NCBI GenBank assembly: GCA_965202785.1
Contig: OZ241855.1
Span: forward strand, 32,001 to 96,000
Length of the DNA: 64,000 nucleotides
Direction of reading: 5' to 3'
Source: Thermodesulfobacteriota bacterium
GTDB taxonomy: Bacteria; Desulfobacterota_D; UBA1144; Nemesobacterales; Nemesobacteraceae
Under the pieces are notes generated by a model, which saw only the letters and a list, made by a program, of their open reading frames with translations, was not told where the DNA came from and searched no databases. This document shows positions 1-19,403 of this stretch, in pieces (the stretch's first letter is position 1; each line of letters begins with the position of its first letter). Position numbers and translations under genes: made by a program.

Positions 1-38
1 GTTAATATCAATAAAAAACCTCAAGGAGATAATAAATT

Positions 39-311: not shown

Positions 312-346
312 TCTCCTAAACGCCGACTCGCTGTAGGCAATATTAT

Positions 347-406
347 TTAAGTTTGGAATTATTATGGCTAAGGAAAGTTCGTGATCTTAAACAATTCCAA
401 ACTTAA
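347..406. repeat. 14-bp perfect inverted repeat between convergent genes (possible bidirectional terminator or mini-element)
   Basis: TTAAGTTTGGAATT (347-360) and AATTCCAAACTTAA (393-406), 32-nt spacer. Confidence 0.7.
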
Positions 407-432
407 TAAACGGGTTCCCCAATCCCCCACAA

Positions 433-2352: not shown

Positions 2353-2378
2353 TTAATTCCTCCTGGGTTTTCTTCTTG

Positions 2379-3239: not shown

Positions 3240-3261
3240 CTAACATGTACCTCCAATTCTC

Positions 3262-3289
3262 AAGCTAATCATCAGAAGGGTTATGTCAA
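3262..3289 (-). promoter_or_regulatory. Putative sigma70 promoter of rpoH-dnaK
   Basis: Minus strand TTGACA-N16-TAGCTT upstream of the GGAGG RBS. Confidence 0.45.
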
Positions 3290-3424
3290 GGTTTCAGAGT
3301 AAAATAAAGGGATAGAAGATGAAGGTAGAAAACAGATTAGATTATTATCGTAGTTTCCTAAAATAAATTAGTTTCTTTCGCTATCCTAGACCTAGTGCCT
3401 GCAGAGCGTCAGTCTTAAAAAGCC

Positions 3425-3444
3425 GGAATTATCCAGTTAACTAG
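3425..3444 (+). repeat. Copy of recurrent terminal-repeat-like motif
   Basis: GGAATTATCCAGTTAACTAG; 16/20 identical to 11971-11990; lies at the left edge of the AT-rich island. Confidence 0.6.
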
Positions 3445-3516
3445 ACAACCTTTCTTTCACTACCTTAAGGGTTTACCTCTTGTGACAACATTCTATAATA
3501 TACAGAAGGGGGAATA

Positions 3517-3957
3517 ATGCGAACAGAAAAAGAACAAAGAGAGTGGCTTTATGAGATACATATTAAAGAGAATCACGAAAGGTACAGATACAATATCCAA
3601 AGCTACGATAAATCAATACTGACTTTATCATCTACCAGCTTAGGGTTTTCTCTTCTAGCTATTAAATATATCGTCCCACTAGAGTATGCGTCTTACAAAT
3701 TCCTTTTAGTCATCGGTTGGGTGTTGTTAGTATTTAGTATTTTTTGCTCATTGTTTGCTTATATGGTTGCTAACAAGTCTCTTGAGGAGGCCGGAAGAAA
3801 CATAACGGATGGATATTTGCACAATGTGCGAGGAGCGCTTACTAGAAAAGTTTCATACGTTAGATATAACGACCTACTTAACTACGCAACAGGTGCATCT
3901 TTTTTTGTGGCGGTAGTAGTTATTCTATTGTTTGTAATTCTAAATCTTCCGACCTAA
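3517..3957 (+). CDS. Hypothetical membrane protein (about 3 TM)
   Basis: 146 aa with RBS and three hydrophobic segments. Confidence 0.7.
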   Translation: MRTEKEQREWLYEIHIKENHERYRYNIQSYDKSILTLSSTSLGFSLLAIKYIVPLEYASYKFLLVIGWVLLVFSIFCSLFAYMVANKSLEEAGRNITDGYLHNVRGALTRKVSYVRYNDLLNYATGASFFVAVVVILLFVILNLPT

Positions 3958-4115
3958 TCGGAACTGTCACCTGTATCGCTTGGTGCCTCTGGTGTTGGTT
4001 CTGGCGTCGGTTCACTATCTACGGTTGGTGTTTGTTGTGGCTTCATTGAACGGTTTATATCAGGTCCGGGGGTATCCACTTTTGGTTGTGGGGACTGGGA
4101 TTTGTCTTTACTCAT
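3954..4115 (-). CDS. Small Pro/Thr-rich low-complexity protein
   Basis: Strong GAAGGAGGA RBS before ATG 4115 (MSKDKSQSPQP...EPTPEPTPEAP). Stop overlaps the convergent gene by 4 nt. Confidence 0.5.
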   Translation of the reverse strand: MSKDKSQSPQPKVDTPGPDINRSMKPQQTPTVDSEPTPEPTPEAPSDTGDSSD

Positions 4116-4222
4116 TGTAGTTGTAGTTCCTCCTTCTTTTTCAACTAAAACTTTCTTATCGATTCTCTTGAACTCTAGAGTATAGAGTAATATACAATAC
4201 GAAAGAATCAACGATGAGAAAA

Positions 4223-4243
4223 GGGCATAATATACTTAACTAA
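4223..4243 (+). repeat. Copy of recurrent terminal-repeat-like motif
   Basis: GGGCATAATATACTTAACTAA; 17/21 identical to 11970-11990. Confidence 0.6.
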
Positions 4244-4270
4244 GATGAACACTAGATATAGAACGAGGGT

Positions 4271-4669
4271 ATGGACTTTGCCAGAGCTTCCTTTATCATC
4301 ATCGCCGAGTATTTTTGGATCGGAGTCGGAGAAGAAATGTTCCCAGATTGGCCTCTAGAAATTCGGACTGCAGGAGCAATCATTTCCAGCATTATAGCTA
4401 TATATCTCTGGCGCCAAGAGTTGCTGGAAATCTTTCAATCTCTTTATCCGCAAAAACCTAAGAAGAAATCACTCCGTTTAGGTCTCGCGAGGATAGCCGC
4501 TCTTGCAAACAGAATTGAGCGAAACCAAGCCACCATGGAAGAGGAGGAGAAATATCACGCATACCTCACCAGTCCTTTTTATCAGGCATGGTTCCAAGAG
4601 TACGACCCCGGAAATTACAAGGAAATTGCGCAGAGAGCTCGCTTTGCGGGGGCAACGTTTCTTTTTTAA
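4271..4669 (+). CDS. Hypothetical membrane-anchored protein
   Basis: 132 aa, GAGGG RBS, N-terminal hydrophobic segments. Confidence 0.55.
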   Translation: MDFARASFIIIAEYFWIGVGEEMFPDWPLEIRTAGAIISSIIAIYLWRQELLEIFQSLYPQKPKKKSLRLGLARIAALANRIERNQATMEEEEKYHAYLTSPFYQAWFQEYDPGNYKEIAQRARFAGATFLF

Positions 4670-4875
4670 TCGTGCTTCTTGCCCAAGGCTATAAGCCAAG
4701 CGAGCGAGAAAACGCCGAAGAAAAAACCTAGTATCGCCCATTTCCAGTTGCTTCGCTTGAACCGATTGGCAATGACAACATGCAATCCTACAAAGAATAT
4801 GTTCCAAAGAATCCACCAGAAAAATATACCGCCTGCATACACAGCCAATAACGCATCAACTTCTGAATCGCTCAT
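4666..4875 (-). CDS. Small 2-TM membrane protein
   Basis: 69 aa, AGGAG RBS. The 'IANRFKRSNWKWAILGFFFGVFSLAWL' pattern is typical of small phage/island membrane proteins. Confidence 0.7.
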   Translation of the reverse strand: MSDSEVDALLAVYAGGIFFWWILWNIFFVGLHVVIANRFKRSNWKWAILGFFFGVFSLAWLIALGKKHD

Positions 4876-4895
4876 ATCTCTTTCTCCTGTAAGGG

Positions 4896-5034
4896 GGTCT
4901 AAGTGACGCCGGGAACATCGGGCACGTGGGTGCCAGGTCCTGTTGACTCCAACGAGATGTTGAGGTTTCGTTTGTTTCCCGGATGGGTGTTTTATTCCGC
5001 GAAAAACCCAACGGAGCAGGCTCTCATTAGAACC
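4896..5034 (-). ncRNA. Candidate structured RNA / 5' leader (multi-branch)
   Basis: Closing stem 5034-5024 with 4906-4896, inner stem CCGGGAA/TTCCCGG (4982-4976 with 4915-4909), hairpins GGCAC-CCAC-GTGCC, CAAC-ATCTC-GTTG and TGGG...CCCA. Extended -10 TGCTATAAT at 5053-5045. Confidence 0.45.
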
Positions 5035-5135
5035 AACACGTCCGATTATAGCACACCTTCGCTTTAATGACTATAATCTAAAGCAATCTTTTTTTGGAAA
5101 AGCGTTCTTTCATGTGTTTTCTCCTGTTTTTGCTA

Positions 5136-5182
5136 GTGCTTTATATACATAACTAGGCATCGTTGAATTCATCCACACATTT
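5136..5182 (+). repeat. Extended degenerate copy of 11970-12016
   Basis: GTGCTTTATATACATAACTAGGCATCGTTGAATTCATCCACACATTT aligns without gaps to GGGAATTATACACATAACTAAACACCATTGAGTTCATCCACACGTTT. Confidence 0.7.
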
Positions 5183-5303
5183 AAATGTTCGTCCGCTCAT
5201 ATGAGAATATTCCTTTGACTAATCATGTGCCAAGCTTTTTTATGTCCTGGCAAGAAGAAACAAGTAAACTTAGGTCATTCCGTATATTGCATATTCCTAC
5301 TGA

Positions 5304-5349
5304 AAAGGGACACCTGTTCCGAGGATAAAGGGACAGGTGTCCCTTTATC
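5304..5349. repeat. REP-like nested palindrome
   Basis: AAAGGGACACCTGT (5304-5317) pairs with ACAGGTGTCCCTTT (5333-5346). Alternative palindrome GATAAAGGGACA-GG-TGTCCCTTTATC (5324-5349). Confidence 0.7.
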
Positions 5350-5610
5350 TTGGAATAAGCAATTTTGCTCCTTCCAGAGGCATTTGAAAGGTCGGAGTCC
5401 CTTCATCCTCTAAAAAACAAAAGATGATTGCATTATCAAATCATTTTCAAACTATAGCTATGTTCGATGCGTTTGATCTTGAAAGGACTTGTTAGTACTA
5501 TCTTTATTATGAGGATGATCTTAAAACTTGTTGTGTGTTACACTTATGGGGCCTGAATCCTTGTTCAAACACAAGAAAGTAGTGGTACTACAATATACAA
5601 GGAGCAAAAG

Positions 5611-6006
5611 ATGAATAGGATTTGCATTGCCTTAGCTTTTTGTTTGATGGTTTGTGTTTTGCCAGCAAAAGCGAACAGCATCAGTTTTGAATTTGTAGAT
5701 AGCAAGTTTGGAAGTGATAGCAGTTGGACCAACCTGCGGAAGAAGGAAGAGTGGAAGAAGTATAAGGGAAAATGTGTTGAATGGACAGGGAAATTGGTAT
5801 ATCTGGATGAGGCGTGGGGGAAAATTTCTCTCGGATTTAAACACAAAGATCTCACGTGGACCTATGATGTTTTGGTCTCTGCACCAAAGTCTTACAAGCA
5901 ACATGCTCTAACTATGGAACAGGGCTCTTTCTATAATTACAAAATGAGGCTTGATGGATATGCTGGTGCTATTTTGCCAATTACAGGTGACTTGGGATGT
6001 GACTAA
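5611..6006 (+). CDS. Exported hypothetical protein, probable OB-fold
   Basis: Signal peptide ending in AKA. 'KYKGKCVEWTGKLV' resembles exported OB-fold proteins. Confidence 0.65.
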   Translation: MNRICIALAFCLMVCVLPAKANSISFEFVDSKFGSDSSWTNLRKKEEWKKYKGKCVEWTGKLVYLDEAWGKISLGFKHKDLTWTYDVLVSAPKSYKQHALTMEQGSFYNYKMRLDGYAGAILPITGDLGCD

Positions 6007-6055
6007 CCTGAATCGTACTCGAGGAAAAAGCAAGGACACATAACCCATAAAAATT

Positions 6056-7480
6056 ATGCATGCCTCCCAATATTTCAAAATTACCAGAGGACCGGATGAC
6101 GATTGGTTTGATCCAATCCTCAATGCCGATACCAAGCTTTTTGTTGACCCATTTCTGATTTTTAAGGAAAAGACTGGCGCATGGACCGATGCCCATGACA
6201 TTATCATAAAGCACTTTGACCAAGCATTTATGTTGATAGCCAAAGGAAACCTGAAGAGGCAAAGTCTTGCCTATAGAAAAGCCTTGGATCTACTTGTGTT
6301 TCGCGAACCTAAGGAATTGTGCTTGGGTTATACAGGATCAGGCACGGCCGGAGCAGGCAGCGGTCGCGGCTTCGCACAAAAAATCGGGAGAGCAATTGAA
6401 AATGCCATTAACAGGGGAGTGATGCACCTACGGCACTTTGAAGAGCTCGGGATCTTCGAACTTGGGATTGGGGCGGACCGAATTTCTGATATTGCCTGTA
6501 CTATCCTTAAGAGACGGTTAATAGAATATACTCAGGACATTGCAAAACGCCATGGTGTTCCGCTGGATGAACACAGGATTTTTGCATCTGGTTTTGACCA
6601 GTGTAGGTTGCGCTGGATTACAGAAACTGTAAAGTTGCCAACAAATCCTACTAATGCCGATCCCCTATTACTTGTTCCCGGAAGATTTCTGAGAAAGCTG
6701 CCTGTATTGAATTCAGACGATTGGTGGGAAGACTGGGAAAACGAACGGCTCAGGACCGACCTTAACTATGAAGTCATGAGAAACGTCAACAAGAGCAAAA
6801 TTGTTGCCACTGCAAAAGCCTACCCCGAAGCTGTCCAAGAATGGATTGAACAGAAAGAACAGAAATCCGCCGAGCCCTACGATTTCGATGCTGATTCAGA
6901 GGGTGTGTCTAAGTGGGTTAGCTCTACAGAGGAATTTGCGAATCAACATCCGATTCATTTCAAAAAGATCAGTTCGGAAGAACAATTCCTGGATGTAATT
7001 AGAAAAATAATTGAACAGTTCAAGCTATTCGTTGAGGAGAAAGGCGGATGGTCTTTGCTCTGGGATAGTCAAAGTGATAAGGAAAAACCAGAGAATGCTG
7101 CTCAACTACTTTTTAGAGGAATTGGAGAACACTATTGTCGCGCTAACAATATTTCAATGGACCGAGAAGTTAATTTTGGTAGAGGTCCCGTAGACTTTAA
7201 ATTCTCAAGCGGTTATAAATTTCGCGCGCACCTCGAAGTCAAAAAATTGCATAGTGGTCGATTCTGGAATGGTCTTGAGGACCAACTTCCCTCCTATATG
7301 AACAGCGATGAAGTAAATGTTGGGTGGTTTCTCGCGATAAGATATCGGGAAGGCGAAAAGTGGGATAAAAGACAGCGGGAACTATCAAGCAGAGTGGCTG
7401 CCGTACGCAAGCAAAAAGGGTTAGCTGTCAACTTCGATGTAGTTGATGCATGCCGACCGGTTTCTGCTTCGAACTTGTAG
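6056..7480 (+). CDS. Hypothetical protein with C-terminal PD-(D/E)XK restriction-like nuclease domain
   Basis: 'KPENAAQLLF...REVNFGRGPVDFKFS...AHLEVKK' fits the E..PD..ExK catalytic pattern; 474 aa. Confidence 0.75.
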   Translation: MHASQYFKITRGPDDDWFDPILNADTKLFVDPFLIFKEKTGAWTDAHDIIIKHFDQAFMLIAKGNLKRQSLAYRKALDLLVFREPKELCLGYTGSGTAGAGSGRGFAQKIGRAIENAINRGVMHLRHFEELGIFELGIGADRISDIACTILKRRLIEYTQDIAKRHGVPLDEHRIFASGFDQCRLRWITETVKLPTNPTNADPLLLVPGRFLRKLPVLNSDDWWEDWENERLRTDLNYEVMRNVNKSKIVATAKAYPEAVQEWIEQKEQKSAEPYDFDADSEGVSKWVSSTEEFANQHPIHFKKISSEEQFLDVIRKIIEQFKLFVEEKGGWSLLWDSQSDKEKPENAAQLLFRGIGEHYCRANNISMDREVNFGRGPVDFKFSSGYKFRAHLEVKKLHSGRFWNGLEDQLPSYMNSDEVNVGWFLAIRYREGEKWDKRQRELSSRVAAVRKQKGLAVNFDVVDACRPVSASNL

Positions 7481-7548
7481 ATTTTTTCAATATTATACGT
7501 GGAGACTATATATGTCGAGCATCAGTAGCCCTACTGACACAGGATTAA

Positions 7549-8673
7549 TTAGTCCTCGGCCCACTCCTCGTATTCCTCAATAATCGAATCGTTCATGTGC
7601 ACAAGATGAGAAGTATCTCCAAGGCTTTTAATGGAGTTGTAGGATAGAAAAGTACACTTCTCGTATAGCGGACCTCGTTCAAGCAATGAGAATACGGGAC
7701 GTCTGATTTCCCGCAGCACCTTTTCTCGTTTTTCATCCGGTGCAACTATATGGAGGCGAATATCCATATTGGGTTGGAGCGCAAGGAGGTCAGCCATACG
7801 CAGCAAACCGGAATACACGGCTGTGGTATGTTCAACTTCAAAGGCCCTAGCCATCGAACGGCCTTTCAACCAGATTACGTCTATCTGTTCAATTGTACGA
7901 AGCGTCGTGTCATCGTAGTTTATGGGTAGCATATCTAGAAAAAGCGGTTTTTCGTCATCCGAAACATGGTCGAGTACTCGAGCTTTGTCGTTTCGGGGCA
8001 CCCATATCTGAAACCCCATTTTAATTCCAATTTTGGCGACTTTTGCTTGCATTAGATGTGACTGCCGACCCTCCGAAGTGGTAGCTTCAACATCCGTGTT
8101 GACATCGTCATAACCATCTTCATCATCCTCCGGTACATCGACTGATATTTCACCACCGGGTGTCCGGACTTTGAAAACTTTCGCCAGTTCCCGGCGGTCC
8201 TTATCCGTGAGAGGATATTCACTCTGTTCCTCTTTCTGCTTTTCCAGTTGAGACAACAAGAATTCGCCGTCAGAGTCTTCTATTTTACGTAGAGAGGAGC
8301 GGAAATTGATGGCCCAGCCTCGACTACCTTTGTCTATGCCTTTTGTTTCGGAGAGACCATCCCAAATTCTGTCGTCTAAGATCGGCAGCGAAAACTCCGG
8401 ATCTAGAAGGACCACTGGTTCAACCTTGAACCGAATCACAAAGGGGTCAGGTTTCTGGAAAATCGGTTTTTCATCCTGAAAAGCTGGAGAGACAATACGG
8501 AGGACCCCACACCATCGGGACAATCGAACCATATAACAGAGAAAAATATCTCCTTCCTTAATATGGTCTTGGGCCACGCGACGTTGCCGGTGTCGAAATC
8601 CACTGATATCGGCTCCATGCTCGCGAAAAGCGGACCATGTCTCAGGTGTGAACAAATTAAGAAAGTACGACAT
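7549..8673 (-). CDS. EVE (PUA-like) domain fused to PD-(D/E)XK nuclease; candidate modification-dependent restriction enzyme
   Basis: N-terminal 'YFLNLFTPETW...IKEGDIFLCY' EVE pattern, acidic linker, C-terminal 'IDVIWL...RAFEVEHTT'. Confidence 0.8.
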   Translation of the reverse strand: MSYFLNLFTPETWSAFREHGADISGFRHRQRRVAQDHIKEGDIFLCYMVRLSRWCGVLRIVSPAFQDEKPIFQKPDPFVIRFKVEPVVLLDPEFSLPILDDRIWDGLSETKGIDKGSRGWAINFRSSLRKIEDSDGEFLLSQLEKQKEEQSEYPLTDKDRRELAKVFKVRTPGGEISVDVPEDDEDGYDDVNTDVEATTSEGRQSHLMQAKVAKIGIKMGFQIWVPRNDKARVLDHVSDDEKPLFLDMLPINYDDTTLRTIEQIDVIWLKGRSMARAFEVEHTTAVYSGLLRMADLLALQPNMDIRLHIVAPDEKREKVLREIRRPVFSLLERGPLYEKCTFLSYNSIKSLGDTSHLVHMNDSIIEEYEEWAED

Positions 8674-8987
8674 AGGCTCAAGCTATCATGTACAAAACAA
8701 TCAGTCAATATGGCGGTGAGTGATAGCAAACAAGAGAAAAGGAACCAAAGGGTTTTTCCCACTGTTTATATGTGGGTAACGGAACAAAGCCACCTACTTG
8801 CAATAGCTAACATATAAAATTAGGGACTATCCCTTTTTTTGTCTCATGCTTGTTTCTTTCAAGTACTATCCGTAATCGCAGTAACATCTCAGTACTGTAG
8901 AAACGCGGCTTAGAGTCCACGAACGGGGCTGGAAGTTTGCCTCTTTACTTGTATCGGTTCACGCATTATAACCGTTTTTATTGTAGG

Positions 8988-10046
8988 TCATCGTGAGAAT
9001 GGACCCATGTCCACCGAAACTTCTGTGATTTCATGTTCCATAATAGTTTCTTCTACTACTTCTGCTTTATCCGGATCAAATAAGGCGAGATTCATTCCTT
9101 TGCTAACGGAACTATTATAAACAACTCCTTGGTAGCCGCACTTTTTAATAAACTCGCACAAATATTGACTTGCAGTGTAGTCGATGGCCGCTGCAGTTGG
9201 AATGACCGGCACTTCCAAGCCTTGTCCAAGGTTTTCCAAAAATTTTATATCACCGCTTCTAAGCTTGGCTAGCGCACTTTCATCACTGAGTAAAAACGGC
9301 GAAATCAGCAAACGTGGTTTACACAGGTCGACTAACTGGAGCTCAGATTCAATCTGAAATTCTGCCACGCAAACAATTTCGCCAGGGTGCGGTCTAACTT
9401 CAGCAGCTACGGTCTCCACTGTTGATCCAAGGTACAAATAGGGAATACCCGCTGGATTAGCCCTCCCATGTGATGCAGCCCGCCTTGGAGGCGCCCCCAT
9501 CTCCTCAGGTTTGTAGCACCTGTCTTCCTTTTCAATTCTCGCCCGGTACCACTTCGAAGAATGCTCGCTTTGATCGAATACAAGATTTCCGAAAAGCCCT
9601 TCCAAACGGCCGTATTCAAATTCTGTATCGGGAAAGAAACGATTGCTATGCATCAATTCCATCGTCAGCCGCTTCCAAGTCATATTCAATTCACATTGAT
9701 CCGGTGCAGATGGAACAAATTTCCGATGGATAATCTCATTGTCATCAAGAATCTCGCCTAAAAGTGCATTTGCACGGACTTCGTCAAGTTCGGTGTGGTC
9801 GAAGAGTAACCAATCTTCTCTCAACCATTCTATTAATAACTTTCCATTCTCTTTAGGTCGATAAATGCCAATTAAAACCTCAAAATATTCAGATAGTTCA
9901 TTTGGCTCTATAAGTGGCTGTTTTTTTGTCTTGCAAAACGAGCAATCACCTTCTTTGCCAGACAAAGAAGGTATGATTTGCGTCTTCAATCCCTTGTCGC
10001 TGAAACATTCCGCACAACAATACATTCGCTCGCGGCCTTTACTCAT
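8988..10046 (-). CDS. RES-domain protein (ART/NADase fold) with N-terminal Cys4 Zn-binding region
   Basis: 'WYRAR', 'GRANPAGIPYLY', 'TVAAEVRP', 'GVVYNSS', 'NLALF'; N-terminal CAEC...CSFC. ATG 10046 overlaps the upstream stop. Confidence 0.9.
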   Translation of the reverse strand: MSKGRERMYCCAECFSDKGLKTQIIPSLSGKEGDCSFCKTKKQPLIEPNELSEYFEVLIGIYRPKENGKLLIEWLREDWLLFDHTELDEVRANALLGEILDDNEIIHRKFVPSAPDQCELNMTWKRLTMELMHSNRFFPDTEFEYGRLEGLFGNLVFDQSEHSSKWYRARIEKEDRCYKPEEMGAPPRRAASHGRANPAGIPYLYLGSTVETVAAEVRPHPGEIVCVAEFQIESELQLVDLCKPRLLISPFLLSDESALAKLRSGDIKFLENLGQGLEVPVIPTAAAIDYTASQYLCEFIKKCGYQGVVYNSSVSKGMNLALFDPDKAEVVEETIMEHEITEVSVDMGPFSR

Positions 10047-10977
10047 CGAAAAATTTCGCGAGTGTCTCAATATGATGCTTCATCGACAACTTCTTCACAT
10101 ATCCAAGACCGGGGTAATGGCCTCTTTCGTAAAGCTCTTGAAATTCAACTATCGCTTGAGTTTCGAGGATCTTGTTATCGCTTTGGTTCAGTGCAGTAAT
10201 TAGTTTTTCTAATGCTTCAGCAAACTTACCTGCCGGGTCTTTGGGTGTGTCCTGCCTATCCGATTTAAAATGTCGGATATGCATTTCATCATCTTTATCG
10301 GAGTCGATATACGTAAGATGGATAGCAACTGTGTATGCGGGTCCACCGTCTTCAGAATATTCATCACCTACAATCAAAAAATCCCCAAAACCATCCATCC
10401 TTTCTAGCTCGAATGTTGCATGAAGATCGGAAAAAAACTCTGTAGATGGATAATCCCTATTACGCCTTCTTTCGAACCCATCTCGGATCAGAATACGATT
10501 CGAATGATCAGCAAAATGGCGCTGGTAGAGCTTTCCACAATGACCTTCAAAAAAGATACTGGTATTGACATTTTCAAAGTCGTCAATTGCTTTGGAAAGC
10601 TTCTTAGCCTTTGAAAAGCCAGCGTGGATTAGGGCAATCTCGTTGTCGAATACTTCGCATAATTCGATAGCCTCAGAAGCGGAAGTCTCTTCGGCAAGCA
10701 AAAGCCCGCAAATCAGATTCTGCTGTTCATGGTAATGCTCATCAATAAACTCTATTAGATCGGTGTTATCATAACTATGGTCGCCTATCTGCGGATTCAT
10801 TACCAAAATTACCTGAGCATTTTCGTCGCATAATTCATCCAGAGTTTTTTTTAGGCCATTCAACTCCTCTTTCACAGGCTCAATTATTGGTACGAAACTT
10901 TTTGCCGCTAAGATCGGTGCGGATTCTCTAATAGTGATTAATTCGTATAGTCTGCCGCGAAAGTAAGGATAATACAT
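10039..10977 (-). CDS. sce7725-family protein (Beta-protein-like)
   Basis: Signature 'MYYPYFRG..ELI', 'VPIIEPV', 'GFGDFLIVG.EYSE.GGPAYTVAIHLTY', 'YPGLG.VKKLSMKHHIE'. Confidence 0.85.
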   Translation of the reverse strand: MYYPYFRGRLYELITIRESAPILAAKSFVPIIEPVKEELNGLKKTLDELCDENAQVILVMNPQIGDHSYDNTDLIEFIDEHYHEQQNLICGLLLAEETSASEAIELCEVFDNEIALIHAGFSKAKKLSKAIDDFENVNTSIFFEGHCGKLYQRHFADHSNRILIRDGFERRRNRDYPSTEFFSDLHATFELERMDGFGDFLIVGDEYSEDGGPAYTVAIHLTYIDSDKDDEMHIRHFKSDRQDTPKDPAGKFAEALEKLITALNQSDNKILETQAIVEFQELYERGHYPGLGYVKKLSMKHHIETLAKFFDE

Positions 10978-10983
10978 TTTAAG

Positions 10984-11874
10984 TTATGCCCACACCGCGG
11001 CTTCACTAATTGGTGTTTTCATCGATTCAACTAGACGAGTGTGGTCTTGCTTCCTCAGGCGCAAGGATAATACTGCCGACCGCAAGGACTTTGGCAACTC
11101 GTTAATGAGTGCGGCAAGTGGCGCAAGATCTCTGGTTTCCCTTAAGATTTGTATCATGCTGGTGTGCACAGAGGTCGGATCAAGTTCGGCGAAACGCCTA
11201 CGTAGTTCTTGATAGCGACGGGTATTAGGCACATCTGGCACCGAAACACCAAGGTCAATGAGTACTAATTCAGCTTCACGCAGACTGATTGAATCAAAAA
11301 TAGCCTTAGGATTAGTTCGAGATGGAATATTGTTGCCTTCTCGAATACTGGAAATTTGATATCTGTCTGAGAGTTTCAAAACGCCTATGTCTTCAGGCAC
11401 AGAATCAAGAACTGCTTTCACATGGTTTTCGCCAACAATCACGTTAACTGTGGCAAACACATTCATATATGCAGCAATCTGTTTTTCGAGCCGCGATAGT
11501 GAATCCCTCTCCGATTTTATCTCGTATACGGTGCTGGTCCCATTTAAAATTACGATGTCCGCCTTGCAACCACCAACTCTGAATTCACTGATCATTGACG
11601 AAGTCTGAAGTGAATGAATGCCAAGTAGTACTTTTTCAGTCAATGCGGCTTTGTATATATATTCGTGGCGGTATCTCTTATGTTTCAAGAACCTAAAGGC
11701 GTGTTCAAAAAGATCAAATACTTTTTCAACTTCACTGGACAGTGCAAGCAGGCGCGATTCATTTAGCAGACGCGCAAACAATGGTGATCGACCTCTTCGT
11801 GCTAGCTCTCTCAATACGGTTGAAGAAAATAAGCGAGCAACGGCAGAGGCCTGAATTTCTTCTGTTTTTTTCAT
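10984..11874 (-). CDS. sce7726-family protein (PD-(D/E)XK fold)
   Basis: 'YRHEYIYK', 'EFRVGGCKADIVILNGTSTVYEIKSERDSLSRL..QI..Y'. Probable start is MKKTEE at 11874. Confidence 0.85.
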   Translation of the reverse strand: MKKTEEIQASAVARLFSSTVLRELARRGRSPLFARLLNESRLLALSSEVEKVFDLFEHAFRFLKHKRYRHEYIYKAALTEKVLLGIHSLQTSSMISEFRVGGCKADIVILNGTSTVYEIKSERDSLSRLEKQIAAYMNVFATVNVIVGENHVKAVLDSVPEDIGVLKLSDRYQISSIREGNNIPSRTNPKAIFDSISLREAELVLIDLGVSVPDVPNTRRYQELRRRFAELDPTSVHTSMIQILRETRDLAPLAALINELPKSLRSAVLSLRLRKQDHTRLVESMKTPISEAAVWA

Positions 11875-11969
11875 TCTACCGCTTTGCCGTCTCAACCTAG
11901 CAGATCGGCTTGCCTCAAACTTGATTTTAACTGACTCGTAAAAACATAGAAATAGCGTCTTAAAAATTT

Positions 11970-12519
11970 GGGAATTATACACATAACTAAACACCATTGA
12001 GTTCATCCACACGTTTGGATAACCGCGTGGCCAACTCCGTTAGTTCTTTCCGACAGATTGATCCAGAATAATGTTCCTCACAATAACGAACAATCGAATC
12101 TAGGTCATTTATCATATGCAATTCTCTTACATCGGCATCCATTTGTTCGGCGAATTCTTCGTATCCCAAGTCCCTAAGTGGGGCCTCTGCATATAAACCT
12201 GTTGAATTAAATCCTCCTAAGTAGGCAGTACCCCATGCAGCAATCAAGGCGGTTTCCAACAACTTGATTACCTCATCTTCGCCTTCGGCGACAACTTTCC
12301 ATGTGAAGGCGTCTTTACCGTATTCTCTAAGCGCATGATGGAAAAATACTCGACCACGATTACTCATCGCATCTCTCTCGTGCTGACTTCTGCGAGCCTT
12401 CAGACTCCGCTTAGTAATGCCTACATAGCGTTTCCCGCTGTCGTTGTGTACCGCCACATAGCAGATCATTTTACGTCGTTCCGCTCCTCTTTTCGGTCTA
12501 GTCATCTATAAATAATCCC
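11970..12519. mobile_element. Non-autonomous inverted-repeat-bounded cassette (MITE/MIC-like, possibly IS1595-derived) carrying a GIY-YIG gene
   Basis: Left end GGGAATTATACACATAACTAA; right end revcomp GGGATTATTTATAGATGACTAG (12519-12498). Flanks AAAAATTT (11962-11969) and AAAAACTT (12520-12527) match 7/8. Confidence 0.6.
11987..12505 (-). CDS. GIY-YIG nuclease-domain protein
   Basis: 'ICYVAVHNDSGKRYVGITKR.L..RR.QH', 'HALREYG.DAFTW', 'LETALI', 'GFN'. The start may be 12469. Confidence 0.85.
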   Translation of the reverse strand: MTRPKRGAERRKMICYVAVHNDSGKRYVGITKRSLKARRSQHERDAMSNRGRVFFHHALREYGKDAFTWKVVAEGEDEVIKLLETALIAAWGTAYLGGFNSTGLYAEAPLRDLGYEEFAEQMDADVRELHMINDLDSIVRYCEEHYSGSICRKELTELATRLSKRVDELNGV

Positions 12520-12633
12520 AAAAACTTTATCCACCGTTACGCTGAAGCTCTCCCTTCTATAATATGTACTCTCTATCAAGGGAGACATATATCCTTAGGA
12601 AACAGATTATATATTGGTTGTAACTTCTTGGAA

Positions 12634-13800
12634 TTAGGCAGTTTTAGCGGCTTCGACCACCTTGGACGCAGCTTCTTTCATGTCGGCCCCGGTCTGGATG
12701 TCAAGACCCGAATTAGATAAGATTTCCCTTCCGGCCTGAACGTTGGTTCCTTCAAGCCTGACCACTAAAGGAACGTTTATTCCGACCTCTCCCGCGGCCT
12801 CAACGATGCCGTCGGCGATAGTGTCGCACTTCATGATGCCGCCGAAGATATTAACGAATATGGCTTTTACGTTCTCATCGCTCAGGATCATCTTAAAGGC
12901 CTTTGTAACCTGCTCCGTAGTAGCCCCTCCGCCGACATCAAGGAAGTTCGCGGGTTCTCCGCCGTGGTGCTTTATAATGTCCATGGTGGCCATGGCAAGC
13001 CCCGCGCCGTTAACCAGACATCCTATGTTTCCGTCAAGCTTAACGAAGCTTATCCCCGCGTCGCTTGCTTCAAGCTCAAGAGGATCCTCCTCGTCCCTGT
13101 CCCTAAGTCCCGCGATGTCACGGTGGCGGAAAAGCGCGTTGTCATCGAAATTGATCTTCGCGTCAAGCGCCACTATGTTTCCGTCCGAGGTAAGAACAAG
13201 CGGGTTTATCTCCGCAAGGGAGCAGTCCTTTTCGATAAAAACCCGGTAAAGGGATGAGATAAACGATACCGCCTGCCTCACGGCGCCGCCCGAAAGACCC
13301 ATGAAATAAGCGATTTTCCGGCACTGGTAGGGCTGAATGCCAACAGAAATATCAACGTGCTCCTTGATTATCTTCTCTGGAGACCTGGCCGCCACCTCCT
13401 CGATCTCTACCCCGCCCTCGGGGCTTCCCATGACAACCACTTTTTCCCGGGAGCGGTCAATCACCATGCCCAGGTAGAACTCTTTTTCTTTGCTCGAGGC
13501 TTCCTCGATCAGTACGCTTCCCACCGTCTTGCCCTCGGGGCCCGTCTGGTGGGTGACCAGGTTCATCCCGATTATCTCATCTGCGGCCGCCATGGCGTCG
13601 TGGGAATTGTCAACCACCTTTATTCCGCCTCCCTTGCCCCGGCCGCCGGCGTGAATCTGGGCTTTCACCACGTACTTTGCAGAGTTAAGAGTATCGAGCA
13701 CTTCTGACACCTCATCCGCGCTGAAAACAACCTGTCCCCCGGGAACCCTGACTCCGAAATCAGAGAGAAGCTTTTTGGCCTGGTATTCGTGTACGTTCAA
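12634..13800 (-). CDS. sucC: Succinyl-CoA ligase beta subunit
   Basis: [42 protein letters not shown]; TTG start. Confidence 0.98.
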
Positions 13801-13814
13801 TCTGGAGCCCTCTT

Positions 13815-14549
13815 CTACTTTCCCTTGATCTTCCGCAAAAGCCAGGAAAGCGGATCATAATACTTGTCAACCACCCTCTCCTTAAGCGGAATGATTCCGT
13901 TATCCGTTATGTGTATGTCCTCGGGGCATACTTCCGTGCAGCATTTCGTGATGTTGCAGAAGCCGACTCCCGCCTCCTCGCGCGCGAACTCCCTCCTGTC
14001 AAGCACGTCCAGGGGATGCATCTCCCGCTCGGCGATCTTTATCATGAACCTCGGCCCCGCAAACGCGTCCTTTCGGTTGTGATCGCGAAGTATGTGACAC
14101 ACGTTCTGGCACATGAAGCACTCTATGCACTTGCGGAACTCCTGTCCCCTCTCGACGTCCTCCTGGTACATGACCCACTCGGTATCCTCGGCGGGGGTAA
14201 ACGGAGGAATCTTCTTGCTTACCTCGTAGTTCCACGACACGTCAGTTACGAGATCCTTTATCACGGGAAAGGCCTTGATCGGGTGAACGGTGATAGTTTC
14301 GCCCTCGGCGAAACTGTCCATGCGCGTTTTGCAGGCAAGCTTCGGTTTTCCGTTTATCTCGGTGCTGCAGGAGCCGCACTTGGCCGCCTTGCAGTTCCAT
14401 CTTATCGCCAGGTCGCCGCCGTAGTTGGCCTGTATGTAGAAAAGCGCGTCGAGGACCACCATTCCCTCATCTACCGGGACCTCGTACTCCTTCTCCTCTC
14501 CACCCTGCGCGTTACCGCGAAAAACTCTTAGCTTGGCTACCGACATCAC
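13815..14549 (-). CDS. sdhB: Succinate dehydrogenase iron-sulfur subunit
   Basis: [32 protein letters not shown] clusters (mycobacterial Sdh1-like). Confidence 0.93.
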
Positions 14550-16264
14550 TTATCCTCCGTAAACATTTTCGAAAGCTCATCGGGCATCTCCATGATCGGC
14601 CGTGTTTCGAGATCCATCGCCCCGCCCTTAACAGCCACTATGGAATTAAGCTTGCCCCATGTTCCGTCATCGCTCTCGGGGAAATCGACCCTGCTGTGGG
14701 CCCCCCTGCTCTCCTTTCTCGCAAGCGCGCAACGTGCGAGCGCCTCAGAGACGATCAGCATCGACTTAAGGTCCCTGCAGAGATGCCAGCCTGGGTTAAA
14801 CATCACCGAACCCTCTATCTTGAGCGTCCTGGCCCTCTCCTTTAACTTCTCTATCTCGTCTATGCCCTTTTGTATGTTCTCCTCGGTACGGAACACCCCT
14901 ATGTAGAGCTGCATCACGTCCTGGAGATCCTGATGGATCGTGTAGGGATTCTCCCCTTGCGTGTTGTTAAAAGGCTCTCTAAGCTCGTTTGCGAATCCCT
15001 CTATAAGCTCTTCGGATACCGACGCGTGGGATTTCCCGCTTGCGTAAGCGGCGGCTCCTTCTCCCGCCCTTTTCCCGAAAACGAGAAGATCAGAGAGAGA
15101 ATTCCCGCCGAGACGGTTCGCGCCGTGCATTCCTCCCGCGACCTCGCCCGCCGCGAAAAGCCCCGGAACGGTGCTCGAGCAGGTGTCCCCTTCAACCTTG
15201 ACTCCGCCCATTACGTAATGTGTGGTCGGGAACACTTCCATCGGGCCTTTCGTTATGTCTATATCCGCAAACTCCATGAACTGGTGGTACATGCTCGGAA
15301 GCTTGCGCTTCACGTAATCGGCTCCCCTGTGGGAGACGTCGAGAAACGCTCCTCCGTGGGGGGAACCGCGGCCCTGCTCCACTTCCGTGTATATGGATCT
15401 TGCCACCACGTCGCGGGTCGAGAGCTCCATGCGCTCTGGGTCGTATCTCTCCATAAAGCGCTCGCCCTCGCTGTTTGTGAGTATGCCTCCCTCTCCGCGC
15501 ACAGCCTCCGTGACAAGGATTCCCCTCACGCTCGGGGGCCAGACCATCCCGGTGGGATGGAACTGTATGAATTCCATGTCTATAAGCTCAGCTCCGGCCT
15601 CATACGCCATTGCGTGACCGTCGCCCGTGTACTCCCAGGAATTAGAAGTGTACTTGTAGGCCTTTCCTACCCCGCCCGTCGCAAGAACAATGGCGTTTGC
15701 GCGGAAAAGAACGAACTTGCCGCTTTCCCTCCAGTAGCCGAAAGCTCCCACAACCCTGTCTCCGTCCTTTACGAGATGGGTTATGGTGCACTCCATGTAG
15801 ACGTCTATGCCCGAGTGTATCCCTTTTTCCTGGAGGGTCCTTATCATCTCAAGACCGGTCCGGTCGCCCACGTGGGCAAGCCTCTTCCACGTGTGCCCGC
15901 CGAATGCCCTCTGATTTATATTCCCCTCTTTCGTTCTGTCGAAAAGAGCTCCCCAGTATTCAAGCTCGCGCACCCTCTCGGGAGCCTCCTGCGCATGGTA
16001 AAGGGCCATCTGCCAGTTGTTAAGCATCTTTCCGCCCTTCATGGTGTCCTTGAAGTGGGTTTCCCAGTTGTCCTTGGTATCGACGTTGGCCAAAGCGGCC
16101 GCGACGCCGCCCTCCGCCATCACGGTGTGGGCCTTGCCGAGCAGGGATTTGCATATGAGTGCGGTCGAGGCGCCTTTTGCGGAAGACTCGATAGCGGCCC
16201 TGAGACCTGCCCCGCCTGCGCCGATGATTATAACGTCATGTGTGTGTGTTTCGTATTTTTCCAC
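14546..16264 (-). CDS. sdhA: Succinate dehydrogenase flavoprotein
   Basis: GAGGAG, KAHTVMAEGG, QFHPTG, HYVMGG, HGANRLGGNSL, ESRGAH. Confidence 0.95.
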   Translation of the reverse strand: MEKYETHTHDVIIIGAGGAGLRAAIESSAKGASTALICKSLLGKAHTVMAEGGVAAALANVDTKDNWETHFKDTMKGGKMLNNWQMALYHAQEAPERVRELEYWGALFDRTKEGNINQRAFGGHTWKRLAHVGDRTGLEMIRTLQEKGIHSGIDVYMECTITHLVKDGDRVVGAFGYWRESGKFVLFRANAIVLATGGVGKAYKYTSNSWEYTGDGHAMAYEAGAELIDMEFIQFHPTGMVWPPSVRGILVTEAVRGEGGILTNSEGERFMERYDPERMELSTRDVVARSIYTEVEQGRGSPHGGAFLDVSHRGADYVKRKLPSMYHQFMEFADIDITKGPMEVFPTTHYVMGGVKVEGDTCSSTVPGLFAAGEVAGGMHGANRLGGNSLSDLLVFGKRAGEGAAAYASGKSHASVSEELIEGFANELREPFNNTQGENPYTIHQDLQDVMQLYIGVFRTEENIQKGIDEIEKLKERARTLKIEGSVMFNPGWHLCRDLKSMLIVSEALARCALARKESRGAHSRVDFPESDDGTWGKLNSIVAVKGGAMDLETRPIMEMPDELSKMFTEDK

Positions 16265-16266
16265 GT

Positions 16267-16998
16267 CTATATCAACCTCAGATCAGTGATTGTTCCGTTT
16301 GCGACCAGGAAAACGTAAAGGTCGGTTAAAGCCACGAAAACAAGGCTTGTCCACGCCCATTTCATATGTACTTCGTTCTGGACGCTTATGGCGCCCCAGA
16401 GGCGAAAGCGGGTCGGACACTTTGAGAACACGTCAAGATTCCCTCCCATCAGGTGGCGAAACGAGTGGCAGGAAAACGAATACATGGTAAGCAGAAACGC
16501 GTTTGCGGTAAGAACTATGGTCCCGACGCCCACTCCGACCCCGTCATGGAAGAAAAAGGCCTCGTAGGAGTCAATCCACAAAAACAGCAGAATGACGATA
16601 GAGGCGTAGAGAAAAAACCTGTGGATGTTCTGCAGGATGAACGGAAAGCTCGACTCTCCGCTGTAGGAACCCCTCTTGCCGACCGGTTTTACCGCGCAGC
16701 CCGGAGGCGAGAAGAAATACGCCCTGTAGTACGCTTTTCTGTAGTAGTAGCAGGTCGCCCGGAATCCAAGCGGCGCCCAGAGAATAAGTATTGCCGGGGA
16801 AAGCGGCCACCAGTCAAGAAGCAGAAGCGGGGAATAAAAAGGCGAAAGGTAGGGTTCTGTGTAGTAAAACTGGTTCGAAAGAGCCCTCCACGTGGAGTAG
16901 ATTCCAAAAGCCCCGAGCACCACCCCGGTTATGAGGGGCTCAACCCACCACGCGTCTTTTCTCATGGTGAGCGCCTTGCTCGCCGTACCGTTAGCCAT
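16267..16998 (-). CDS. Succinate dehydrogenase membrane anchor, Sdh1/type F-like
   Basis: 'YLSPFYSP', 'FRATCYYYRKAYYR', 'QNIHRFF', 'SCHSFRHLMGG' motifs of the Rv0249c-like anchor. Confidence 0.85.
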   Translation of the reverse strand: MANGTASKALTMRKDAWWVEPLITGVVLGAFGIYSTWRALSNQFYYTEPYLSPFYSPLLLLDWWPLSPAILILWAPLGFRATCYYYRKAYYRAYFFSPPGCAVKPVGKRGSYSGESSFPFILQNIHRFFLYASIVILLFLWIDSYEAFFFHDGVGVGVGTIVLTANAFLLTMYSFSCHSFRHLMGGNLDVFSKCPTRFRLWGAISVQNEVHMKWAWTSLVFVALTDLYVFLVANGTITDLRLI

Positions 16999-17081
16999 AT
17001 TGCAGAAACCTCCAAAAAATATTTCCGGAGCGCCCGTCCGAGATTACAGACGGCGCCGGGGGGCGGAACGTAAGCGGAACC

Positions 17082-18029: not shown

Positions 18030-18072
18030 GATCCCACTCCTTTTGAAAAGATTTGCTGTGCCGCGAGCCCCT

Positions 18073-19317: not shown

Positions 19318-19403
19318 TGAACACCTCTCTTTTTGAACTAAACGAAAATTTAAATCTCAAAATATAATGGAAAAAACCGCCCTTTTCAAATCCGCCTCTC
19401 AAC

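What the first reader, a model, noticed from the sequence alone, without database searches (positions are those of the whole stretch)
8988..11874. Coupled sce7726-sce7725-RES triad: candidate uncharacterised three-component defence/TA system
Seen: three co-oriented genes with a 6-nt gap and an 8-nt stop/start overlap. They encode a PD-(D/E)XK-fold protein with intact D..EIK residues, a sce7725/Beta-like protein, and a RES protein with R/E/S residues and an N-terminal Cys4 site. They lie among other nuclease genes in an AT-rich island. Established: RES domains are NAD+-consuming or ADP-ribosylating toxins, P4 Beta neutralises the Gop toxin, and the sce7725/7726 pair is island-borne with no function that I know of. 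Inference: a phage-sensing system in which the nuclease/Beta-like pair gates an NAD+-depleting effector.
Basis: partly seen in the sequence, partly recalled or inferred. Interest (0 to 1): 0.75.

Follow-up and report, generated by a model that had tools for sequence, protein, structure and literature searches.

The report
Three-gene RES defence module, P4-like
Three tightly packed genes (a nuclease, a TIM-barrel protein related to phage P4 Beta, and an NAD+-destroying RES protein) form a widespread mobile module that looks like an untested cousin of a known anti-phage system.

Summary
Three co-oriented minus-strand genes encode an sce7726-family PD-(D/E)XK nuclease (10984-11874), an sce7725-family protein (10039-10977) and a Zn-ribbon + HEPN/RES-NTD1 + RES protein (8988-10046). 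They lie in a low-GC island with other defence-type genes. The triad is not a chance neighbourhood. 79 of the 80 best sce7725 loci from other species carry all three genes in the same order, and the one miss is a contig end. Gaps between the genes are a few bases. It is not a new kind of system. sce7726 is homologous to phage P4 cII (PADLOC model 'cll', 2.8e-20). sce7725 is a remote homologue of P4 Beta (profile-profile probability 94.6%, E 6.5e-8) and folds as a TIM barrel. So this is a gop-beta-cII / 'TIM-B' type system in which the small Gop toxin is replaced by a RES protein built like the recently described aRES defence protein. A 2026 preprint already lists RES toxins and this nuclease among TIM-B partners. 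No paper I found tests this triad. Most likely mechanism, inferred: NAD+ depletion by RES, held in check by the TIM-barrel protein, with the nuclease as sensor or second effector. New variant of a known kind; moderate interest.

The parts
10984..11874 (-). sce7726-family protein (296 aa). It is a homologue of phage P4 cII. The PD-(D/E)XK nuclease core is at residues about 64-186, with helical N- and C-terminal extensions.
   Evidence: NCBIfam NF033832 3.5e-50. PADLOC 'cll' 2.8e-20. BLASTP to P4 cII 1e-11, 29% identity. E97, D106, E118 and K120 invariant in 30 sequences. AF2 model pLDDT 93. VIA hits: 3dnx Z 10.8 (rmsd 4.8, 142 aligned), PaqCI Z 9.4 (rmsd 3.4, 120 aligned), then XisH and Can2 nuclease domains.
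10039..10977 (-). sce7725-family protein (312 aa). It has a TIM-barrel fold and is a remote homologue of P4 Beta (Pfam Beta_protein, called 'TIM-B' in the preprint).
   Evidence: NCBIfam NF033831 5.3e-103. No Pfam hit. hhalign of a 46-sequence alignment against 16 PF14350 proteins: probability 94.6%, E 6.5e-8, 306 columns. AF2 model pLDDT 89, pTM 0.89. TIM-barrel matches at Z 10.6-13.2. Best viral-library match is one uncharacterised phage protein, E 2.4e-7, TMq 0.63.
8988..10046 (-). RES protein (352 aa from ATG 10046; alternative conserved start at ATG 10025).
   Evidence: Pfam RES 4.6e-17. 2445 homologues at E<=0.001 among 4662 candidates; public sources name several 'RES family NAD+ phosphorylase'.
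9933..10019 (-). N-terminal Cys cluster of the RES protein (C10, C11, C14 ... C35, C38), a Zn-ribbon-like site.
   Evidence: C10, C14 and C35 invariant; C11 and C38 at least 90% conserved in 26 sequences. Anantharaman et al. 2013 note that some RES fusions to HEPN/RES-NTD1 carry an extra N-terminal Zn ribbon (PMC3710099, passages read).
9633..9959 (-). HEPN/RES-NTD1-like region of the RES protein (residues about 30-138).
   Evidence: PF18870 E 0.0032-0.0034, 18.2 bits, below the 27.4-bit cut-off. 14 of 26 homologues match at E<=0.01, best 1.4e-5.
9048..9551 (-). RES catalytic domain (residues 166-333), with R195, E216 and S312/S313.
   Evidence: PF08808 covers residues 166-333 of the 352-aa protein. 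The named residues are invariant in 26 sequences.

Best explanation
This is a three-gene, horizontally mobile conflict module of the gop-beta-cII / 'TIM-B' type.

Shown:
- The first gene is a cII-type PD-(D/E)XK nuclease.
- The second is a TIM-barrel protein remotely homologous to P4 Beta.
- The third is a RES-domain protein with the Zn-ribbon + HEPN/RES-NTD1 + RES build.
- The three travel together as one tightly packed unit in many phyla, often on plasmids, in prophage-like contigs or beside defence genes.

Inferred:
- RES is the effector. When released it destroys NAD+, most likely by phosphorolysis to nicotinamide and ADPR-1''-phosphate, as in RES toxins and aRES. This stops growth of the infected cell (abortive infection).
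- The TIM-barrel protein keeps RES off in uninfected cells, as Beta does for Gop. Because residues conserved across the family sit at the ends of barrel strands, it probably does this as an enzyme rather than as a passive binder.
- The nuclease is either the sensor of foreign DNA or a second effector.
For: Identity of the parts.

Conserved unit:
- 516 of 541 candidate stretches in one-genome-per-species contigs encode a sce7725 relative. Of the best 80 loci, 79 have sce7726 -> sce7725 -> RES in that order, and the one miss ends at a contig edge.
- Identities of the three proteins to the window co-vary (r 0.80-0.82 over 79 loci). In the 45 loci my script resolved, gaps are mostly 3-8 nt (sce7726 to sce7725) and -4 to 20 nt, median 5 (sce7725 to RES).
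- In a sample of 401 Enterobacterales genomes, all 7 full-length RES homologues (33-53% identity) sit behind sce7726 and sce7725.

Same logic in the Beta clade:
- 15 of 17 full-length PF14350 loci have a cII-like gene within 1.5 kb.
- Their partner genes vary: Gop-like, Peptidase_M78, GNAT.

Context:
- The window island holds a PDC-M36A homologue and an EVE-REase.
- In 16 randomly drawn related loci, 7 carry mobile-element markers. Ten have a PADLOC hit at E<=1e-10 within 6 kb, and 7 of those are specific (Septu-like, AbiE, type III R-M, retron RT, PDC-S32, TmtA, RmrA).
- 16 plasmid records hold a relative; 26 viral-collection contigs do.
- Only 1 of 24 other genomes of the same genus has it over the cut-off.

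Function of relatives, from papers:
- gop-beta-cII protects against lambda and P1, and Gop is toxic without Beta (PMC9122126).
- aRES depletes NAD+ on infection (10.64898/2026.01.28.702374).
- TIM-B is proposed as a negative regulator of swapped effectors that include RES (10.64898/2026.10.19.760177).

Enzyme hint: N61, D166, D199 and S239, invariant or at least 90% conserved in 46 diverse sequences, lie at or just after the C-terminal ends of predicted strands, and H220 and H236 lie within strands.
Against: - No experiment on this triad exists in the papers I could search.
- PADLOC has no model that matches sce7725 or this RES.
- sce7725 does not match Pfam Beta_protein directly (0 of 4 triad-bearing genomes). 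The link rests on one profile-profile comparison. It failed with a narrow alignment (E 0.14) and by BLASTP (E 0.57).
- Gene order differs from P4: all three genes are co-directional with the nuclease first, whereas P4 has gop-beta with a convergent cII.
- The aRES authors describe their proteins as stand-alone, so a RES protein of this build may need no partner.
- The RES profile finds no solved RES toxin by sequence. The chemistry (NAD+ phosphorolysis or protein ADP-ribosylation) is therefore unassigned.
- 5 of 16 sampled loci show neither mobile-element nor defence/TA neighbours, and no matched control for neighbourhood enrichment was run.
Confidence: 0.6

Rival explanations
1. Addiction or stabilisation module of mobile elements, not an immune system. 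RES is a toxin and sce7725 its antidote. The triad serves to keep plasmids and islands in the cell, or to trigger dormancy under stress.
For: - 7 of 16 sampled loci carry relaxase, plasmid replication, integrase or transposase genes.
- 16 plasmid records hold a relative.
- Classical RES proteins are type II toxins (papers listed; listings and abstracts only).
- gop/beta was first read as a toxin-antitoxin pair (PMC9122126).
Against: - The relatives that were tested do defend against phage.
- A 312-aa conserved TIM barrel plus a 296-aa nuclease is far more than an antidote needs.
- 7 of 16 sampled loci sit beside specific defence genes.
- The two roles are not exclusive.
Confidence: 0.17
2. A modification-restriction-like pair with a back-up effector. 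The TIM barrel, if it is related to deazaguanine transglycosylases, marks the host's own DNA, or the nuclease itself. The cII-type nuclease cuts unmarked incoming DNA. RES fires only if that fails.
For: - The nuclease is the most constant partner of the TIM barrel in both clades: 79 of 80, 15 of 17, and 21 of 26 loci. The third gene varies or is missing.
- The preprint relates TIM-B to the transglycosylase family that includes the DNA-modifying DpdA.
- An archaeosine transglycosylase gives the longest alignment among the 20 highest-Z structural matches (1iq8_A, Z 11.2, rmsd 4.5, 238 aligned). Cap10 appears too (9ntn_B, Z 10.7, rmsd 3.9, 224 aligned).
Against: - These matches tie with many unrelated TIM barrels (top Z 13.2), so the specific link is not shown here.
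- No base-synthesis genes are conserved next to the triad in the 16 sampled loci.
- In P4, cII is dispensable and convergent.
Confidence: 0.15
3. Two independent systems that merely sit side by side: a self-sufficient aRES-type protein and a separate sce7726/sce7725 pair.
For: - aRES proteins with the same two Pfam domains work alone.
- sce7726/sce7725 pairs without RES exist (L103, L132, L136, L141).
Against: - 79 of 80 loci show the fixed order, with gaps of -4 to 20 nt in the 45 loci resolved.
- Divergence co-varies down to 33% RES / 38% sce7725 identity.
- None of the 7 full-length Enterobacterales RES homologues at 33-53% identity was found without the pair. The only lone full-length match is a 24%-identity protein.
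Confidence: 0.08

Closest known systems
gop-beta-cII anti-phage system of satellite phage P4 (Rousset et al. 2022, PMC9122126; PADLOC/DefenseFinder 'gop_beta_cll', the second name recalled)
   Same: A cII-type PD-(D/E)XK protein (RefSeq labels P4 cII 'sce7726 family protein'). A Beta-type TIM-barrel protein. A third, toxic-looking gene. Carried on mobile elements.
   Different: - Gop (133 aa; predicted 2TM by the preprint) is replaced by a 352-aa RES enzyme with no similarity to it.
- Gene order is nuclease, TIM barrel, effector, all co-directional, not gop-beta with a convergent cII.
- sce7725 is too diverged for Pfam Beta_protein to detect.
'TIM-B systems' (bioRxiv 10.64898/2026.10.19.760177, section 33 read)
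   Same: A TIM-barrel Beta-family protein coupled to swappable effectors. [quoted passage not shown] The regulator-plus-effector logic is the same.
   Different: - That work is comparative genomics only.
- I could not see its figures or supplements, so I cannot tell whether the sce7725 clade or this exact three-gene order is covered.
- Here the REase is a near-constant partner rather than one alternative effector.
aRES (bioRxiv 10.64898/2026.01.28.702374; abstract, passages and section 27 read)
   Same: RES domain plus HEPN/RES-NTD1, with length inside the 300-600 aa range. Found in defence islands. Expected chemistry: NAD+ to nicotinamide + ADPR-1P.
   Different: - aRES is described as stand-alone; this protein is always the third gene of an operon in the loci I examined.
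- PF18870 is below Pfam's cut-off in the window protein.
- No sequence comparison with the tested aRES proteins was possible, because their sequences were not at hand.
Type II RES toxin-antitoxin pairs (Xre-RES: MbcTA, ParST, NatRT; names partly recalled, listings)
   Same: RES catalytic domain with the R, E and S residues.
   Different: - No Xre/HTH antitoxin gene lies beside it.
- It carries an extra N-terminal Zn ribbon and NTD1.
- The RES profile finds no solved RES toxin by sequence at E<=1.

Membership tests
NCBIfam sce7726_fam / sce7725_fam | Score over the curated cut-off of each model | tested here: met
   170.5 bits against a cut-off of 70; 345 bits against a cut-off of 60.
gop-beta-cII (P4) | cII-type protein | tested here: met
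   PADLOC 'cll' 2.8e-20. BLASTP to P4 cII 1e-11.
gop-beta-cII (P4) | Beta protein recognised by Pfam PF14350 | tested here: not met
   No Pfam hit at E<=0.01. PF14350 finds nothing in 4 triad-bearing genomes. Remote homology is nonetheless supported by hhalign at 94.6%, E 6.5e-8, and one 33%-identical sce7725 relative hits PF14350 at 2.4e-4.
gop-beta-cII (P4) | Gop toxin gene | tested here: not met
   No similarity between the third gene and P4 Gop (best E 11).
gop-beta-cII (P4) | gop-beta operon with a convergent cII | tested here: not met
   All three genes are on one strand, with the nuclease first.
gop-beta-cII (P4) | Protection against phage | not testable with these tools
   Needs plaque assays.
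TIM-B systems (preprint) | TIM-barrel protein of the Beta family next to an effector gene | tested here: met
   TIM-barrel model. Beta homology. RES gene follows after an 8-nt overlap or a 13-nt gap, depending on the start used.
TIM-B systems (preprint) | Specific kinship of the barrel with deazaguanine transglycosylases | tested here: inconclusive
   1iq8_A Z 11.2 (rmsd 4.5, 238 aligned) and 9ntn_B Z 10.7 (rmsd 3.9, 224 aligned), among many TIM barrels at Z 10.6-13.2.
TIM-B systems (preprint) | REase with helical extensions and a C-terminal HeH domain | tested here: inconclusive
   The PD-(D/E)XK core and the helical N- and C-terminal parts are present. The HeH domain was not tested separately.
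aRES | RES domain (PF08808) | tested here: met
   4.6e-17, 62.9 bits against a cut-off of 23.2.
aRES | HEPN/RES-NTD1 (PF18870), hhsearch probability over 80% in the authors' method | tested here: inconclusive
   HMMER gives 18.2 bits, below the 27.4-bit cut-off. 14 of 26 homologues match at E<=0.01. The hhsearch criterion could not be run here.
aRES | Length 300-600 aa | tested here: met
   352 aa.
aRES | Stand-alone gene, not in an operon with partners | tested here: not met
   79 of 80 loci show the three-gene unit. 7 of 7 full-length Enterobacterales homologues are in it.
aRES | NAD+ cleaved to nicotinamide + ADPR-1P on infection | not testable with these tools
   Needs LC-MS.
Xre-RES type II toxin-antitoxin | Adjacent Xre/HTH antitoxin gene | tested here: not met
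   The genes next to RES are sce7725 upstream and an EVE/REase gene downstream. Neither of those two has an HTH hit in Pfam.

The most novel reading that the evidence does not exclude
The TIM-barrel protein is an active base- or nucleotide-transferring enzyme that keeps the module silent by covalently marking a macromolecule. The target would be either the RES protein itself, in the way the Cap10 transglycosylase-like enzyme modifies its cyclase, or the host's DNA so that the cII-type nuclease spares it. Phage infection would remove or outrun that mark, releasing both the nuclease and NAD+ destruction. On this reading the TIM barrel + nuclease pair, not the toxin, is the ancient invariant core of a large, unrecognised family of self/non-self systems. 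P4 gop-beta-cII would be one small branch of it.
Probability: 0.15. Interest if true: 0.8.

Novelty: new variant of a known kind. Interest (0 to 1): 0.45.

Why it matters
- The triad is common: a sce7725 relative is found at 516 places in a one-genome-per-species collection, and the family spans 1451 clusters at 50% identity. It occurs in many phyla.
- Current defence finders see only one of its three genes.
- It links two recently validated themes, P4 gop-beta-cII and aRES NAD+ phosphorolysis. It also offers a simple system for asking what the enigmatic Beta/TIM-B protein does.
- If the TIM barrel proves to be an enzyme that licenses a nuclease and a NADase, that would be a new regulatory principle in bacterial immunity.
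- If not, this is one more effector swap in a known family.

Tried and rejected
- BLASTP of sce7725 against P4 Beta was not significant (E 0.57). Only an N-terminal YYPxxRxRxxE-like stretch is shared.
- hhalign with a narrow 30-sequence alignment was not significant (E 0.14). It became significant only with 46 diverse sequences.
- RES against Gop: nothing.
- PADLOC found nothing for sce7725 or RES at E<=0.01.
- Sequence searches of solved structures found no RES toxin for the RES profile (only a chance-level 0.32 hit) and nothing meaningful for the sce7725 profile.
- Foldseek against solved structures gave only generic TIM barrels at TM about 0.4 for sce7725. P4 Beta by name did not appear among the 50 viral-library rows shown.
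- A sigma-70 promoter scan found no site in the 112-nt spacer upstream of sce7726 (1 site in the 4-kb region against 7.9 expected). No tRNA gene lies in 1-20000.
There is no result in either direction.
- Earlier notes of this scan held nothing relevant.
- The GIY-YIG gene upstream was considered as a fourth component and rejected: no GIY-YIG hit appeared among the 143 flank ORFs of 16 related loci.
Full report
**What is in the window**

Three minus-strand ORFs fill 8988-11874.
- Gene 1 (10984-11874, 296 aa from the ATG) scores 170.5 bits on NCBIfam sce7726_fam.
- Gene 2 (10039-10977, 312 aa) scores 345 bits on sce7725_fam over its full length. It has no Pfam hit.
- Gene 3 (8988-10046, 352 aa) matches Pfam RES at 4.6e-17 and, below threshold, HEPN_RES_NTD1 at 0.0034.

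One caveat applies. Most of the 26 aligned RES homologues begin at the second Met (MxCC), which in the window is the ATG at 10025 and would leave a 13-nt gap.

The motifs also hold.
- E97, D106, E118 and K120 are invariant in 30 sce7726/cII-like sequences.
- In RES, C10, C14 and C35 are invariant, C11 and C38 are at least 90% conserved, and R195, E216, S312 and S313 are invariant.

The genes lie in a stretch of GC 0.39-0.45 (about 3-12.6 kb), between flanks of 0.53-0.59. On one side is a succinyl-CoA synthetase-like gene, named here from its translation. The neighbours inside the island are:
- a GIY-YIG protein (11987-12505);
- an EVE + type II REase-like protein (7549-8673; PADLOC REase_II 2.6e-17);
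- a PDC-M36A homologue (6056-7480; 3.6e-35).

**Is the triad more than a neighbourhood?**

Yes.
- The sce7725 protein has 4282 relatives at E<=0.001 among 5340 candidates. The RES protein has 2445 among 4662. Many pairs in the two lists share the same longest-contig length.
- A scan of one genome per species found 541 candidate stretches, of which 516 encode a relative. The best 80 loci were kept.
- tblastn with the three window proteins found all three, in the order sce7726 -> sce7725 -> RES, in 79 of the 80. The miss, L034, ends inside sce7725 at the contig edge.
- These 80 are the closest relatives (52-78% identity), so they do not sample the whole family.
- Titles of these records name Alpha- and Gammaproteobacteria, Bacteroidota, Chlorobiaceae, Planctomycetota, Acidobacteriota, Nitrospinota, Thermotogaceae and an actinobacterium.
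- Identities of the three proteins to the window co-vary (r 0.80-0.82, 79 loci). Kinship alone can produce this.
- My script could place the RES start in 45 loci; 34 were not resolved by its pattern. In those 45, the gaps are mostly 3-8 nt between genes 1 and 2, and -4 to 20 nt (median 5) between genes 2 and 3.

In 401 sampled Enterobacterales genomes, 14 had a RES match.
- The 7 full-length ones (33-53% identity) all sit behind sce7726 and sce7725.
- One genome has sce7725 followed by a RES gene broken by two stops.
- One 24%-identical full-length match has no sce7725 within 1.5 kb.
- Five matches cover the RES domain only.

Within the window's own genus, only 1 of 24 other genomes has sce7725 over the cut-off. 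A second has a 15-residue fragment at a contig end. None of 16 genomes from other genera of the order has it. This is an accessory, horizontally moving unit.

**Relation to phage P4**

- PADLOC's only hit in the triad is 'cll', to sce7726 (2.8e-20).
- The P4 record labels cII 'sce7726 family protein'. BLASTP of the window protein to P4 cII gives 1e-11 at 29% identity.
- sce7725 against P4 Beta is not significant by BLASTP (E 0.57). It was also not significant by hhalign with a narrow alignment (E 0.14).
- I then took 45 diverse sce7725 relatives and aligned them with the window protein (46 rows). They came from a whole-library HMM search (1451 representatives at E<=0.001) plus one distant relative cut from a fetched locus (L103).
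- I compared this alignment with 16 PF14350 proteins cut from Enterobacterales genomes.
- The result was probability 94.6%, E 6.5e-8, with 306 aligned columns end to end.
- A 33%-identical sce7725 relative also touches PF14350 at 2.4e-4.
- RES shows nothing in common with Gop.

So the window holds cII-like + Beta-like + a different third gene.

**Folds**

- The sce7725 model (pLDDT 89, pTM 0.89) is a beta/alpha barrel.
- Foldseek and VIA-align return only TIM barrels. The best is malyl-CoA lyase, Z 13.2, rmsd 3.4, 189 aligned.
- Archaeosine tRNA-guanine transglycosylase gives Z 11.2, rmsd 4.5, 238 aligned, the longest alignment among the 20 highest-Z rows. Cap10 gives Z 10.7, rmsd 3.9, 224 aligned.
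- These transglycosylase matches tie with unrelated barrels, so that kinship is neither confirmed nor excluded here.
- The best viral-library match is one uncharacterised Gordonia phage protein (E 2.4e-7, TMq 0.63).
- Conserved residues N61, D166, D199 and S239 sit at or just past strand ends, and H220 and H236 sit within strands. That placement is where TIM-barrel enzymes keep their active sites, which is a hint and not proof.
- The sce7726 model (pLDDT 93) has a PD-(D/E)XK core at residues 64-186. Its matches are 3dnx (Z 10.8, rmsd 4.8, 142 aligned), PaqCI (Z 9.4, rmsd 3.4, 120 aligned), then XisH and Can2 nuclease domains.

**How the wider family is built**

In the Beta clade, 17 of 401 Enterobacterales genomes matched PF14350, 16 of them over the cut-off.
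- Of 17 loci with a full-length Beta gene, 15 have a cII-like gene within 1.5 kb, mostly convergent as in P4.
- I scanned the genes just upstream of Beta in 10 loci. Peptidase_M78 (ImmA/IrrE) was present in 7, Gop-like in 1, MerR in 1, and nothing recognisable in 1. One locus also had a GNAT.

In the viral collection, 26 loci carry a sce7725 relative.
- 14 have RES and 21 have sce7726. Ten of the 14 look like one element sampled repeatedly.
- Divergent members show HTH + Peptidase_M78 upstream with the order sce7725 -> sce7726 (L134, L137).
- Others have the pair alone (L132, L136, L141).
- One enterobacterial locus (L103) has the pair followed by about 975 nt without an ORF of 50 aa or more.

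The constant elements are therefore the TIM barrel and the nuclease. The third gene is swapped, and RES is the fixed partner in the clade around the window.

**Context of related loci**

I drew 16 loci at random from the 52 with full 6-kb flanks and scanned 143 flank ORFs.
- Pfam shows relaxase, plasmid replication, integrase, transposase or coupling-protein genes in 7 of 16.
- PADLOC at E<=1e-10 hits in 10 of 16. In 3 of these the only hit falls on a generic protein: a relaxase, a sigma factor and a sigma-54 activator. That leaves 7 of 16 with specific neighbours: Septu-like PDC-M01 plus Upx, RmrA, AbiE, TmtA, PDC-S32, type III R-M, and a retron RT-Toprim.
- One more locus has MazF and HipA.
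- 5 of 16 show none of these.
- I ran no matched control, so this is consistent with defence-island residence but does not prove enrichment.

Sixteen plasmid records carry a relative. In a Shinella plasmid the three genes are annotated 'sce7726 family protein', 'sce7725 family protein' and 'RES family NAD+ phosphorylase'.

**What is in print**

- 'sce7725' or 'sce7726' occur in 7 papers, judged from titles and abstract starts to be annotation mentions.
- Rousset et al. 2022 report that gop-beta-cII protects against lambda and P1, and recall that Gop is toxic without Beta (PMC9122126, passages).
- A 2023 preprint shows that a phage gene triggers gop-beta-cII toxicity (10.1101/2023.04.06.535777, passages).
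- Osterman et al. 2026 describe aRES: stand-alone proteins with RES plus PF18870, 300-600 aa, which deplete NAD+ to nicotinamide + ADPR-1P and defend E. coli (10.64898/2026.01.28.702374; abstract, passages, section 27).
- A preprint of October 2026 renames Beta as TIM-B and relates it to deazaguanine transglycosylases. [quoted passage not shown] It proposes TIM-B as a constitutive negative regulator (10.64898/2026.10.19.760177, section 33 read). Its figures and supplements were not available to me and may already show this architecture.
- Anantharaman et al. 2013 defined HEPN/RES-NTD1 and noted that some RES fusions have an extra N-terminal Zn ribbon, which is the build seen here (PMC3710099, passages).
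- Searches found no experimental test of the sce7726-sce7725-RES triad.

**Mechanism and verdict**

Shown: the identity and intact motifs of the three proteins, their fixed operon, their mobility, and their kinship with gop-beta-cII.

Inferred:
- RES is the growth-arresting effector and acts on NAD+.
- The TIM barrel restrains it, probably enzymatically.
- The nuclease senses or attacks foreign DNA.

The binding test could not be done. I put 0.6 on this reading. Rivals are a plain addiction module (0.17), a modification/restriction-like core with RES as back-up (0.15), and two unrelated systems side by side (0.08).

The finding is real and widespread, but it is a variant of known systems, not a new kind.

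Noticed in passing
window 6056-7480 (+): 474-aa protein matching the PADLOC candidate-system model PDC-M36A (3.6e-35) with no Pfam hit. It may be part of another, uncharacterised defence candidate in the same island.
   Followed up: no
window 7549-8673 (-): 374-aa protein with an N-terminal EVE-like domain (Pfam 1.5e-4, just under the cut-off) and a C-terminal type II REase-like region (PADLOC REase_II 2.6e-17). It looks like a modification-reading restriction enzyme.
   Followed up: no
window 11987-12505 (-): 172-aa GIY-YIG protein, co-oriented and 112 nt upstream of sce7726. No GIY-YIG was seen in the flanks of 16 related loci, so it is probably not part of the module.
   Followed up: partly
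window 8822-8834: Short GC-rich hairpin with T-runs on both strands, about 150 nt downstream of the RES stop. It is a possible two-way terminator between the triad and the EVE-REase gene.
   Followed up: no
window about 26000-30000 and 38000-45000: Two further stretches of lowered GC (0.40-0.47, against about 0.55 around them). They may be other islands.
   Followed up: no
L103 6887-7861: In an enterobacterial genome a distant sce7726/sce7725 pair is followed by about 975 nt without any ORF of 50 aa or more, where RES would be expected. After that come an NA37 nucleoid-protein gene and, on the other side, an AAA_15/21 ATPase + HNH pair. This could be a decayed effector or an RNA.
   Followed up: partly
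L115 / L118 / L119 (one genome, G396): A triad in which the RES reading frame is interrupted by one TGA and one TAG while sce7725 is intact. This is an apparent effector pseudogene.
   Followed up: no
L083-L097 (Enterobacterales Beta_protein loci): Recurrent four-gene layout: a protein of about 230 aa with no Pfam family, then Peptidase_M78 (ImmA/IrrE), then Beta, with a convergent cII-like nuclease.
   Followed up: partly
L146 1-52 (Shinella plasmid): The annotated plasmid copy of the triad has a DUF4238 protein and a DUF6527 protein nearby. From memory, DUF4238 is a named P4-hotspot defence gene; I did not check this.
   Followed up: no
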